The notes below the pieces were generated by a model. That model made no database searches. It was not told the DNA's origin and was given only the letters and a program-made list of their open reading frames with translations. Positions 27,497-30,301 of a stretch of 64,000 nucleotides of DNA are shown here, in pieces. The translations under genes were made by a program, and so were the position numbers. Source of the DNA: Escherichia coli (GTDB lineage: Bacteria > Pseudomonadota > Gammaproteobacteria > Enterobacterales > Enterobacteriaceae); assembly GCF_030013205.1 (NCBI RefSeq), contig NZ_CP122648.1; one strand, written 5' to 3'. Each line of letters begins with the position of its first letter. Positions within the stretch are counted from its first letter, which is position 1.

Positions 27497-30301
27497 ATGA
27501 GTAAACTTTTGGATCGCTTTCGCTACTTCAAACAAAAGGGCGAAACCTTTGCCGATGGTCACGGACAGGTGATGCATAGCAACCGCGACTGGGAGGACAG
27601 CTATCGCCAGCGTTGGCAGTTCGACAAAATCGTGCGTTCCACCCACGGTGTTAACTGTACAGGCTCCTGTAGCTGGAAAATCTACGTTAAAAATGGTCTG
27701 GTGACCTGGGAAATCCAACAGACTGACTACCCGCGCACTCGCCCTGACCTGCCCAATCATGAACCTCGCGGCTGCCCGCGTGGCGCAAGTTACTCCTGGT
27801 ATCTCTACAGCGCTAACCGTCTGAAATACCCGCTCATTCGTAAACGACTGATTGAACTGTGGCGCGAAGCCCTCAAGCAACACAGCGATCCGGTACTGGC
27901 GTGGGCATCGATTATGAACGATCCGCAAAAGTGCCTAAGCTACAAACAAGTACGTGGACGCGGCGGCTTTATCCGCTCCAACTGGCAGGAGCTAAACCAG
28001 CTGATTGCCGCTGCTAACGTCTGGACCATCAAAACTTACGGCCCGGATCGCGTTGCCGGTTTCTCGCCGATCCCGGCGATGTCGATGGTTTCTTACGCCG
28101 CCGGAACACGTTATCTTTCACTATTAGGTGGCACCTGTTTAAGCTTCTACGACTGGTATTGCGACCTGCCGCCCGCCTCGCCGATGACCTGGGGCGAACA
28201 AACCGACGTGCCGGAATCTGCCGACTGGTATAACTCCAGTTACATCATCGCCTGGGGGTCTAACGTACCGCAGACACGTACGCCGGACGCCCATTTCTTT
28301 ACCGAAGTACGCTACAAAGGCACTAAAACCATCGCCATTACCCCTGACTACTCTGAAGTGGCCAAATTGTGCGACCAGTGGCTGGCACCGAAACAAGGCA
28401 CTGATAGTGCCCTGGCAATGGCAATGGGCCATGTCATTTTAAAAGAGTTTCATCTCGATAATCCCAGCGATTATTTTATCAACTACTGCCGCCGCTACAG
28501 CGACATGCCGATGCTGGTAATGCTGGAACCTCGCGACGACGGCAGCTACGTTCCCGGGCGCATGGTCCGCGCATCTGACCTGGTGGATGGACTGGGCGAA
28601 AGCAACAATCCGCAGTGGAAAACCGTGGCGGTTAATACCGCAGGTGAACTGGTGGTGCCGAACGGTTCGATTGGTTTTCGCTGGGGAGAAAAAGGCAAAT
28701 GGAATCTGGAATCCATTGCCGCCGGTACGGAAACCGAATTGTCGTTAACTCTGCTCGGTCAACATGATGCCGTTGCAGGCGTGGCCTTCCCCTACTTTGG
28801 CGGCATTGAAAATCCGCATTTTCGCAGCGTAAAAAACAATCCTGTCCTGGTGCGTCAATTACCCGTTAAAAACCTGACATTAGCCGATGGCAGCACCTGT
28901 CCGGTGGTCAGCGTTTATGATTTGGTACTGGCGAATTACGGCCTCGATCGCGGGCTGGAAGATGAAAACAGCGCGAAAGATTACGCTGAAATCAAACCGT
29001 ACACCCCAGCCTGGGGTGAGCAAATTACCGGTGTGCCGCGCCAGTATATTGAAACCATCGCTCGTGAATTTGCCGATACTGCCCATAAAACGCATGGGCG
29101 CTCGATGATTATCCTCGGCGCAGGTGTTAACCACTGGTACCACATGGACATGAACTACCGTGGGATGATCAACATGCTGATCTTCTGCGGTTGTGTCGGG
29201 CAAAGCGGTGGCGGATGGGCACACTATGTCGGTCAGGAAAAACTGCGCCCACAAACCGGCTGGTTGCCGCTGGCCTTTGCGCTCGACTGGAACCGCCCAC
29301 CGCGCCAGATGAACAGCACCTCGTTTTTCTACAATCATTCCAGCCAATGGCGCTATGAAAAAGTCTCTGCTCAGGAGTTACTTTCACCGCTCGCCGATGC
29401 CAGTAAGTACAGCGGTCATCTGATTGATTTCAACGTTCGTGCCGAACGTATGGGCTGGCTACCTTCTGCGCCGCAGCTGGGGCGTAACCCGCTCGGGATT
29501 AAAGCTGAAGCCGACAAGGCCGGATTATCCCCCACAGAATTTACCGCCCAGGCGCTGAAATCGGGCGATTTACGCATGGCCTGCGAACAACCAGATAGCG
29601 GCAGCAATCATCCGCGTAATTTGTTTGTCTGGCGTTCTAACCTGCTTGGCTCCTCCGGCAAAGGCCACGAGTATATGCAGAAGTATCTGCTGGGAACCGA
29701 AAGTGGGATTCAGGGTCAGGAACTCGGTGCCAGCGACGGGATCAAACCAGAAGAAGTCGAGTGGCAAACTGCGGCGATTGAAGGCAAGCTCGACCTGCTG
29801 GTGACGCTCGACTTCCGTATGTCCAGTACCTGCCTGTTCTCCGATATCGTTCTGCCCACCGCCACCTGGTACGAAAAAGACGATATGAACACCTCGGATA
29901 TGCATCCGTTTATTCATCCGCTTTCTGCGGCGGTCGATCCGGCGTGGGAATCACGCAGCGACTGGGAAATCTACAAAGGTATCGCCAAAGCCTTTTCGCA
30001 AGTGTGCGTGGGCCATCTTGGCAAAGAAACCGACGTGGTATTACAACCACTGCTGCATGACTCTCCGGCAGAACTCTCACAGCCGTGTGAAGTGCTCGAC
30101 TGGCGCAAAGGCGAATGCGATCTGATTCCAGGTAAAACTGCGCCCAATATTGTGGCGGTGGAACGCGACTACCCTGCTACCTATGAACGCTTTACCTCGC
30201 TCGGGCCATTGATGGACAAACTTGGCAACGGCGGTAAAGGGATTTCGTGGAATACCCAGGATGAAATCGATTTCCTCGGCAAACTCAACTACACCGAGTA
30301 G
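27497..30301 (+). pseudogene. narZ: 3'-truncated narZ (nitrate reductase Z alpha subunit): 934 codons of an expected roughly 1246, terminating at a stop codon created at the IS91 junction
   Basis: Translation from MSKLLDRFRYFKQKGETFADGHGQVMHS... is NarG/NarZ-like throughout; the ORF ends ...FLGKLNYTE-stop where IS-derived sequence begins; no narY, narW or narV follow. Confidence 0.85.

What the first reader, a model, noticed from the sequence alone, without database searches (positions are those of the whole stretch)
27497..30301. Cryptic nitrate reductase Z operon reduced to an orphan narU plus a C-terminally truncated narZ
narU (nitrate/nitrite transporter) is intact, but narZ stops at a TAG created at the IS junction (last residues ...GKLNYTE) and narY, narW and narV are missing. 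The strain therefore lacks the second, RpoS-dependent respiratory nitrate reductase while keeping the transporter; the 934-aa NarZ fragment lacks the C-terminal part of the catalytic subunit and cannot assemble with the missing NarY.
Basis: partly seen in the sequence, partly recalled or inferred. Interest (0 to 1): 0.45.

Follow-up and report, generated by a model that had tools for sequence, protein, structure and literature searches.

The report
IS91-truncated narZ, 19.7-kb deletion
In this pig-associated E. coli, the mobile element IS91 has cut the nitrate reductase Z gene and removed about 19.7 kb of neighbouring DNA. This is an ordinary loss of a back-up enzyme, but sister strains show four different deletions from the same IS91 copy, each ending at the element's preferred four-base target.

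Summary
narU (26014-27402) is intact. narZ (27497-30301) keeps 933 native codons and then reads Glu-TAG from the first bases of an IS91 element (30295-32123). narY, narW and narV are absent.

IS91 is followed by pqqU starting at its nucleotide 828, so about 19.7 kb and 16 other genes or remnants are gone. Nitrate reductase A (narK-narGHJI) is intact elsewhere in the matching genome (ETEC4079).

The same narZ::IS91 left junction occurs in six complete swine E. coli genomes, with four different right junctions (deletions of 11.9, 16.9, 19.7 and 32.8 kb). Every right junction is the IS91 oriIS end followed by GAAC or CAAG, the published IS91 target (chance about 6.5e-10). Native narZ reads TACAC|CAAG at the left junction, a canonical insertion site.

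This is therefore an IS91 insertion followed by deletions whose endpoints were set by the transposase. They arose either in one step or through a second IS91 copy and recombination.

It is an instance of a known kind: IS801 does the same on plasmids. RefSeq already marks narZ here as a pseudogene. Interest is low to moderate.

An unexplained IS-free 680-bp deletion in ydcV, bounded by CAAG and GAAC, lies nearby.

The parts
26014..27402 (+). narU, nitrate/nitrite transporter. Intact 462 aa with a lineage-specific V316M substitution (SNP at 26959).
27497..30294 (+). narZ remnant: native sequence for codons 1-933. The third base of codon 933 (30295) is supplied by IS91 and is identical to the native base.
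30295..30301 (+). Junction. IS91 starts with C (which completes Thr933 ACC), followed by GAG (Glu934) and the TAG stop. This is the terIS end CGAG, which is the 5'-CTCG cleavage site on the other strand.
30295..32123 (+). IS91, 1829 bp, CGAGTAGG...CCTATCGAT. It is identical to the copies in ETEC4067 and ETEC1748 and to a plasmid copy in ETEC4079. It is the only IS91 on this chromosome.
30302..30317 (.). terIS subterminal hairpin GCAGCC-N4-GGCTGC.
   Evidence: described for IS91 in PMC13181058
30383..30748 (+). orf121 of IS91 (121 aa). Its stop overlaps the tnpA start (TGATG).
30748..31935 (+). tnpA, IS91 HUH Y2 transposase (395 aa; Pfam Zn_Tnp_IS91 + Y2_Tnp).
32124..32127 (+). CAAG target tetranucleotide abutting the oriIS end. 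It corresponds to pqqU nt 828-831.
32124..33399 (+). pqqU (yncD) remnant lacking its first 827 nt, which encode the N-terminal ~275 residues. RefSeq annotates it as a pseudogene.

Best explanation
Shown. A complete IS91 (1829 bp, intact orf121 and tnpA) sits with its terIS end fused to narZ codon 933 and its oriIS end fused to CAAG inside pqqU. Relative to an otherwise near-identical sister strain, 19.7 kb is missing between the two junctions. The missing DNA comprises the narZ 3' end, narY, narW, narV, yddE, nhoA, yddH, pptA, a sulfatase gene, a GGDEF gene, an ISAs1 remnant, RHS remnants, yncH, yncG, ansP, yncE and the pqqU 5' end. The strain therefore cannot make nitrate reductase Z. It keeps narU and the whole narK-narGHJI system.

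Inferred history.
1. IS91, probably from one of the strain's IS91-rich plasmids, made a canonical simple insertion 5' of the CAAG at narZ nt 2799-2802.
2. The IS91 transposase then acted at the oriIS/tetranucleotide junction and at another same-strand GAAC/CAAG further downstream. It joined oriIS to the new tetranucleotide, and the DNA in between was lost. This is an ori-anchored, one-ended-transposition-like adjacent deletion.

The process happened at least four times in this lineage, stepwise or independently, giving deletions of 11.9, 16.9, 19.7 (this window) and 32.8 kb.

I put about 0.97 on 'IS91-mediated truncation and deletion, NRZ lost'. I put about 0.9 on 'endpoints chosen by the IS91 transposase'. 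I put about 0.5 on the one-step intramolecular version as opposed to the two-step rival.
For: - Junction mapping against intact ETEC4075.
- IS91 boundaries confirmed on three plasmid copies and on the tandem junction in K_EC180.
- Native narZ reads TACAC|CAAG at the left junction.
- Four different right junctions in six complete genomes, all ...CCTATCGAT followed by GAAC, GAAC, CAAG or CAAG on the same strand.
- Such tetranucleotides occupy 167 of 33,054 positions in the ancestral interval, so 4 of 4 by chance is 6.5e-10.
- Published IS91 specificity: 5'-CTTG and 5'-GTTC (the complements of CAAG and GAAC) account for over 90% of insertions, the tetranucleotide next to oriIS is essential, and the terIS cleavage site is 5'-CTCG (PMC13181058).
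- Shared ancestry of the narZ::IS91 strains is supported by the private narU V316M SNP, and for the Belgian strains also by the ydcV scar.
- For one step rather than two: no other IS91 copy is seen on the ETEC4079 or ETEC4067 chromosomes (places_in_record = 1), and no genome has two IS91 copies flanking undeleted DNA.
- Precedent: IS801, of the same family, makes nested plasmid deletions with a fixed ori801 border and variable GAAC/CAAG borders (PMC6354349).
- Loss of function: PF01568 lies in the deleted part, narYWV is absent and narGHJI is intact.
Against: - The end product of the one-step event is identical to that of the two-step rival, so the sequence alone cannot separate them.
- The title of Bernales et al. 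1999 (cited) says intramolecular IS91 transposition gives second-site simple insertions, not deletions.
- The IS801 precedent is on plasmids, where the deletion derivative is itself the transposition product. The equivalent on a 5-Mb chromosome needs a direct strand exchange that has not been demonstrated for IS91.
- No genome with the postulated simple insertion (IS91 followed by the rest of narZ) was found.
- Absence of narYWV from the whole ETEC4079 genome is inferred from a ranked hit list, not from an exhaustive scan.
Confidence: 0.5

Rival explanations
1. Two-step route. A second IS91 copy made a simple insertion, in the same orientation, 5' of the CAAG in pqqU. In sister strains the second copy landed 5' of the tetranucleotides in RHS, in ansP and upstream of yncJ. 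Homologous recombination between the two direct 1.8-kb repeats then deleted the interval. That leaves one IS91 with the narZ left junction and the new right junction.
For: - It predicts the observed junctions exactly, including target tetranucleotides on one strand only.
- Intramolecular IS91 transposition is reported to give second-site simple insertions (title of Bernales 1999).
- Recombination between IS91 copies deletes the hly operon (PMC3214074), and IS801 copies recombine on pPsv48A.
- The two IS91 copies of K_EC180 are mosaics with clustered differences, so IS91 copies have recombined in this lineage.
Against: - It needs four separate same-orientation insertions within 33 kb downstream of the resident copy.
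- No other chromosomal IS91 insertion, in either orientation and at any locus, is seen in ETEC4079 or ETEC4067.
- No two-copy intermediate exists among 5426 genomes.
Confidence: 0.35
2. The deletion arose independently of IS91, by illegitimate recombination or RHS- or ISAs1-related rearrangement. IS91 inserted into the novel joint afterwards, or is only a passenger.
For: - The region is deletion-prone in this lineage. An IS1-bounded deletion removes the whole locus in ETEC4069.
- An IS2 remnant replaces 546 bp in GCA_030346235.
Against: - The left junction is constant across all four variants, and the right junctions always abut the IS91 end at GAAC or CAAG (P = 6.5e-10).
- The left junction is itself a canonical IS91 insertion site in native narZ.
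- An unrelated deletion would not produce four nested variants anchored on one IS end.
Confidence: 0.03
3. Artefact or natural variant: either a mis-assembly across a repeated IS, or a naturally short NarZ isoform.
For: IS91 is multicopy on the strain's plasmids, which can confuse assemblers.
Against: - Six complete genomes from two countries share the junction. Draft contigs end at or run into IS91 at exactly this base, and the exact 934-aa product is on 17 contigs.
- Flanking chromosomal synteny is consistent on both sides.
- NarZ is 1246 aa and colinear with NarG.
Confidence: 0.01

Closest known systems
IS801 (IS91 family) ori-anchored deletion series on Pseudomonas savastanoi plasmid pPsv48C (Bardaji et al. 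2019, PMC6354349)
   Same: The IS is retained. One border is fixed relative to the element, and DNA outside the ori end is lost. The variable border is always GAAC or CAAG. The result is a set of nested deletions of different sizes.
   Different: - That case was on a 42-kb plasmid under laboratory counter-selection, where the deletion derivative is the circular one-ended-transposition product itself.
- Here it is IS91 proper, on a 5-Mb chromosome, in natural isolates.
- A literal run-around rolling circle is implausible at that size, so a direct strand exchange or a two-step route must be invoked.
Canonical IS91 insertion (Mendiola & de la Cruz 1989; Dual regulatory role of Orf121, PMC13181058)
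   Same: The element is 1.83 kb, with orf121 and tnpA overlapping. The terIS end is CTCG. The oriIS end abuts 5'-CTTG or 5'-GTTC. There is no target duplication.
   Different: The present copy is no longer a simple insertion. The DNA that originally followed oriIS (the narZ 3' end) has been replaced by pqqU sequence 19.7 kb away.
Progressive IS-adjacent deletions in experimental evolution (IS150 in the LTEE; PMC11708052)
   Same: An IS inserts first, and an adjacent deletion then appears and can grow with time. The IS stays at the deletion joint without target duplications.
   Different: Those elements are DDE transposases acting through cointegrate-type chemistry without a sequence-specific endpoint. 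Here every endpoint carries the HUH transposase's tetranucleotide.
E. coli respiratory nitrate reductase A/Z (NarGHI, PDB 1Q16; NarZYV)
   Same: The fragment is NarZ over residues 1-933. It keeps the NarG N-terminal signature, the FS0 His/Cys motif and the molybdopterin oxidoreductase domain.
   Different: It lacks residues 934-1246, including the Molydop_binding domain. The beta, delta and gamma partners are also missing, so it is a pseudogene and not an enzyme.
Deletion of the IS91-flanked hly operon (PMC3214074)
   Same: IS91 sequences mediate the loss of the intervening genes.
   Different: That case is recombination between pre-existing partial IS91 repeats, independent of TnpA, and the endpoints lie inside the repeats.

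Membership tests
Functional nitrate reductase Z alpha subunit (NarG/NarZ) | N-terminal NarG signature domain (PF14710) and FS0 cluster motif H-x3-C-x3-C | tested here: met
   PF14710 at residues 3-40, E = 2.5e-17. HGVNCTGSCSW is present in the translation.
Functional nitrate reductase Z alpha subunit (NarG/NarZ) | Molybdopterin oxidoreductase domain (PF00384) | tested here: met
   Residues 108-831, E = 2.5e-70.
Functional nitrate reductase Z alpha subunit (NarG/NarZ) | C-terminal molybdopterin dinucleotide-binding domain (PF01568) and full length of about 1246 aa, colinear with NarG | tested here: not met
   PF01568 maps to residues 154-268 of the deleted 314-aa tail. Full NarZ aligns to 1Q16 over 1-1246. 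The ORF here stops at 934.
Functional nitrate reductase Z alpha subunit (NarG/NarZ) | Partner genes narY (beta), narW (chaperone) and narV (gamma) in the operon | tested here: not met
   No tblastn hit in the window. The narZ::IS91 strains are absent from the complete list of >=99% narYWV matches.
IS91 (IS91 family, HUH Y2 rolling-circle element) | orf121 plus tnpA with overlapping stop and start; transposase with Zn_Tnp_IS91 and Y2_Tnp domains | tested here: met
   TGATG overlap at 30746-30750. PF14319 and PF04986 on the identical 395-aa product. RefSeq names it an 'IS91-like element IS91 family transposase'.
IS91 (IS91 family, HUH Y2 rolling-circle element) | terIS end with 5'-CTCG cleavage site and subterminal hairpin; oriIS end abutting 5'-CTTG or 5'-GTTC | tested here: met
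   The left end is CGAGTAGG with hairpin 30302-30317. The right end is followed by CAAG. The same ends occur on plasmid copies. Definitions are from PMC13181058.
IS91 (IS91 family, HUH Y2 rolling-circle element) | No target-site duplication | tested here: inconclusive
   No repeat flanks the element, but the original right flank has been deleted, so the test is uninformative here.
IS91 (IS91 family, HUH Y2 rolling-circle element) | Demonstrated transposition activity of this copy | not testable with these tools
   The ORFs and both ends are intact, and the copy is 100% identical to a plasmid copy. Activity is only inferred from the four different right junctions.
IS91-family ori-anchored (one-ended-transposition-type) deletion series | IS retained, ter-side neighbour constant, DNA outside ori lost, variable border at GAAC or CAAG on one strand | tested here: met
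   Four variants, 4 of 4 at GAAC/CAAG, P = 6.5e-10. The defining pattern is from PMC6354349.
IS91-family ori-anchored (one-ended-transposition-type) deletion series | Dependence on the transposase and independence of homologous recombination | not testable with these tools
   Needs recA and tnpA genetics. There is only the indirect argument from the absence of extra chromosomal IS91 copies.

The most novel reading that the evidence does not exclude
One transposase reaction could explain both features seen here. The reaction is cleavage 3' of two same-strand CTTG/GTTC tetranucleotides, followed by rejoining. The features are the four ori-anchored deletions and the nearby IS-free 680-bp ydcV deletion, whose lost segment begins with CAAG and whose retained flank begins with GAAC. 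If so, IS91 TnpA can delete host DNA tracelessly, or IS91 can excise with resealing of the donor after making an adjacent deletion. That activity is not part of the classical replicative rolling-circle model for IS91.
Probability: 0.12. Interest if true: 0.55.

Novelty: new member of a known kind. Interest (0 to 1): 0.25.

Why it matters
For the organism, this swine ETEC lineage has lost several functions:
- the stationary-phase nitrate reductase NRZ;
- the PQQ receptor PqqU;
- the asparagine permease AnsP;
- about a dozen other genes near the replication terminus.

It keeps NarU and the main nitrate reductase. narYWV is present in 99.5% of complete E. coli genomes, so the loss is unusual, but it is not mechanistically surprising.

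For mobile-DNA biology, the six genomes give a natural snapshot of a single chromosomal IS91 copy producing a graded series of deletions. Their endpoints obey the transposase's tetranucleotide rule. This extends to IS91 and to a chromosome what was shown for IS801 on plasmids. It also gives a convenient natural substrate for asking whether such deletions are one-step transposase events or insertion followed by recombination.

The IS-free ydcV scar, if it is IS91-made, would point to excision with donor resealing.

Tried and rejected
- **narYWV or a NarZ C-terminus elsewhere in the window:** only a 34% ferredoxin match in fdnH.
- **Natural short NarZ:** rejected.
- **Assembly artefact:** rejected, because the junction is in six complete genomes and in draft contigs.
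- **More right-junction variants:** exact look-ups of the 934-aa product and of NarU V316M gave draft contigs that stop at IS91. One long contig (L011) has the same junction as ETEC1748, so there were no new endpoints.
- **The postulated ancestral simple insertion, and two-copy intermediates:** none among 5426 genomes.
- **ydcV deleted segment as a pseudo-element:** its ends show no similarity to IS91 oriIS or terIS beyond shuffled controls.
- **Literature on the strains:** no paper mentions them.
- **Mendiola et al. 1994 (PMC43276):** not held. The statement that one-ended events finish at GAAC/CAAG therefore rests on PMC6354349.
- **Metagenome scan for the ancestral junction:** not run, because a hit was unlikely and the shared cost is high.

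Full report
**1. Observation**

The window matches the chromosome of swine enterotoxigenic E. coli ETEC4079 (NZ_CP122643.1; window position = record position minus 2,623,728). There is one mismatch in 64 kb.

narU lies at 26014-27402 and is a complete 462-aa ORF. narZ starts at 27497 and its ORF ends with TAG at 30299-30301. Compared with the sister strain ETEC4075, whose locus is intact, the product is identical for residues 1-933. It then reads Glu-stop instead of Lys-Arg.

**2. What truncates narZ**

Homology to narZ ends at 30295. From that base the sequence is IS91. Copies on plasmids of the same strains match from exactly 30295 to 32123. They are bounded by CGAGTAGG...CCTATCGAT and are 1829 bp long. 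The element has three further features:
- a terIS hairpin;
- orf121 (30383-30748);
- an overlapping tnpA (30748-31935) with Zn_Tnp_IS91 and Y2_Tnp domains.

The left end CGAG is the published terIS cleavage site, 5'-CTCG on the other strand (PMC13181058). The first IS base (C) coincides with the third base of Thr933. GAG and TAG are IS bases.

**3. Extent of the loss**

To the right of IS91 the sequence is not narZ or narY. It is pqqU from nucleotide 828. Relative to ETEC4075 (L006), about 19.7 kb is missing (L006 4946-24668). The missing DNA carries:
- the narZ 3' end, narY (annotated narH), narW and narV (annotated narI);
- yddE, nhoA, yddH and pptA;
- an alkyl/aryl-sulfatase gene and a GGDEF gene;
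- an ISAs1 remnant and RHS remnants;
- yncH, yncG, ansP and yncE;
- the first 827 nt of pqqU.

No NarZ C-terminus, NarW or NarV is encoded anywhere in the window.

narYWV is present in 5397 of 5426 complete E. coli genomes. All 16 records with a copy at least 99% identical are listed. They include intact sister strains but none of the narZ::IS91 strains. narK-narGHJI and narXL are intact in ETEC4079, so only the second enzyme is lost.

**4. Why the fragment is dead**

The retained 934 aa carry the NarG N-terminal domain, the Fe4S4 region and the molybdopterin oxidoreductase domain. The deleted 313 residues carry the molybdopterin dinucleotide-binding domain PF01568. Full-length NarZ is colinear with NarG of PDB 1Q16 over 1-1246. 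With no beta, gamma or chaperone genes, no NRZ can be assembled. This last step is an inference from the established NarGHI architecture.

**5. A nested deletion series**

The same left junction occurs in six complete genomes, but with four different right junctions.

| Strains | Sequence after ...CCTATCGAT | Location of right junction | Deletion |
|---|---|---|---|
| ETEC1748, ETEC4070, ETEC4071 (also draft GCA_030346235) | GAAC | RHS remnant | 11.9 kb |
| ETEC4067 | GAAC | ansP | 16.9 kb |
| ETEC4079 / this window | CAAG | pqqU | 19.7 kb |
| K_EC180 (Korea) | CAAG | upstream of yncJ | 32.8 kb |

All narZ::IS91 strains share the private narU V316M SNP, which intact relatives lack. The Belgian strains also share a ydcV deletion. 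The IS91 insertion in narZ was therefore a single ancestral event.

GAAC and CAAG are the complements of 5'-GTTC and 5'-CTTG. These are the tetranucleotides that receive more than 90% of IS91 insertions and must abut oriIS. In the ancestral interval they occupy 167 of 33,054 top-strand positions. Four of four junctions by chance has P = 6.5e-10.

Native narZ reads TACAC|CAAG at the left junction. That is what a simple IS91 insertion 5' of CAAG would require.

**6. Mechanism**

The descriptive part, an IS91 insertion followed by deletions whose endpoints the transposase chose, is strongly supported. Two routes give the same product.

*One step.* TnpA cleaves at the tetranucleotide/oriIS junction and at a second same-strand tetranucleotide. 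It joins the latter to oriIS, and the interval is lost. This corresponds to the deletion derivatives that IS801 generates on pPsv48C, which have a fixed ori801 border and variable GAAC/CAAG borders.

*Two steps.* A second-site simple insertion occurs, as the title of Bernales 1999 reports for intramolecular IS91 transposition. Recombination between the two direct copies follows, as seen for IS91-flanked hly and for IS801.

I favour the one-step route slightly, at about 0.5 against 0.35. The ETEC4079 and ETEC4067 chromosomes carry no other IS91 copy, and no two-copy intermediate exists in the collection. The mosaic tandem IS91 pair of K_EC180 shows, however, that IS91 copies do recombine in this lineage. 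Only genetics can decide between the two routes.

**7. Comparison and novelty**

This is a pseudogenisation and IS-adjacent deletion of a known kind.
- RefSeq already flags narZ and pqqU as partial.
- The ori-anchored, tetranucleotide-terminated series has a published plasmid precedent for IS801.
- Growth of IS-adjacent deletions over time is documented for other IS families.

New here is the instance itself: IS91 proper, on a chromosome, in natural isolates from two countries. No paper mentions these strains.

**8. Region context**

The locus is deletion-prone in this lineage.
- ETEC4069 has lost everything from yddA' to yncG' through an IS1-bounded deletion.
- GCA_030346235 has an IS2 remnant replacing 546 bp.
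- All Belgian members carry an IS-free 680-bp deletion in ydcV.

In the ydcV deletion the lost segment begins with CAAG and the retained flank begins with GAAC. There is no microhomology beyond 1 bp. It is the only indel without an IS in about 42 kb shared with ETEC4075. My estimate of the chance that both borders fall at such tetranucleotides is about 1e-4, from the site frequency and allowing for two strands and a 1-bp ambiguity. This is a post hoc estimate. The lost segment has no IS91-like ends. It may be a scar of transient IS91 activity. I leave it unexplained.

**9. Verdict**

The real feature is a 19.7-kb IS91-anchored deletion, one of a nested series. It is ordinary in kind and neat as an example.

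Noticed in passing
window 38922|38923 (ydcV/ydcU; ancestral L006 31468-32147): An IS-free 680-bp deletion removes most of ydcV and alters the ydcU end. The deleted segment starts with CAAG and the retained flank starts with GAAC. These are IS91 target tetranucleotides, on the same strand as the IS91 right junctions. Only 1 bp of microhomology is present. The deletion occurs in just six genomes of this lineage. It may be a scar of transient IS91 activity.
   Followed up: partly
L010 (ETEC4069, NZ_CP122679.1 2581223-2583649): A sister strain that carries the ydcV scar has lost the whole region from yddA' to yncG' through an IS1-bounded deletion. 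The lost DNA includes narU, narZ' and IS91. This is a fifth deletion configuration at this locus within one lineage.
   Followed up: partly
L005 16396-20052 (K_EC180): Two IS91 copies lie in perfect head-to-tail tandem (…CCTATCGAT|CGAGTAGG…). Both are mosaics relative to the Belgian copy, with 105 and 17 clustered differences. This suggests insertion of a second isoform at the tetranucleotide next to a resident end, plus recombination among IS91 variants.
   Followed up: partly
window 26959 (narU codon 316): V316M in NarU is private to the narZ::IS91 lineage. The exact protein is seen on 35 contigs, and the 934-aa NarZ' product on 17. It is useful as a lineage marker. Its functional effect is unknown.
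   Followed up: partly
window 33520 (mcbR), 36218 and 36130 (ydcZ): Two SNPs separate the window from ETEC4075, one in mcbR and one in ydcZ. RefSeq gives ETEC4079 private protein accessions for both genes. The window differs from the ETEC4079 RefSeq record at a single base, 36130.
   Followed up: no
L002 12696-13924 (ETEC4075): The sister strain with an intact narZ operon carries an IS2 insertion immediately upstream of narU. The window lacks it. The insertion may alter narU-narZ expression in that strain.
   Followed up: no
L011 18949-19215 (GCA_030346235.1): A 267-bp IS2 end fragment replaces 546 bp covering yncH and the end of yncG. The strain has the ETEC1748-type IS91 junction.
   Followed up: no
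window 47603-48774 (ydcO): ydcO is annotated as a frameshifted pseudogene. The same frameshift annotation appears in ETEC4075 and K_EC180.
   Followed up: no
(e.g. NZ_CP070907.1, NZ_LR130553.1): narZ and narYWV sequences also match 25-38 places on records classed as plasmids, so the operon is occasionally plasmid-borne or lies on mis-assigned replicons.
   Followed up: no
L020 (pP1525, NZ_CP080234.1): One plasmid IS91 copy is followed by CCAG rather than CAAG or GAAC. This corresponds to the rare 5'-CTGG target listed in PMC13181058.
   Followed up: no
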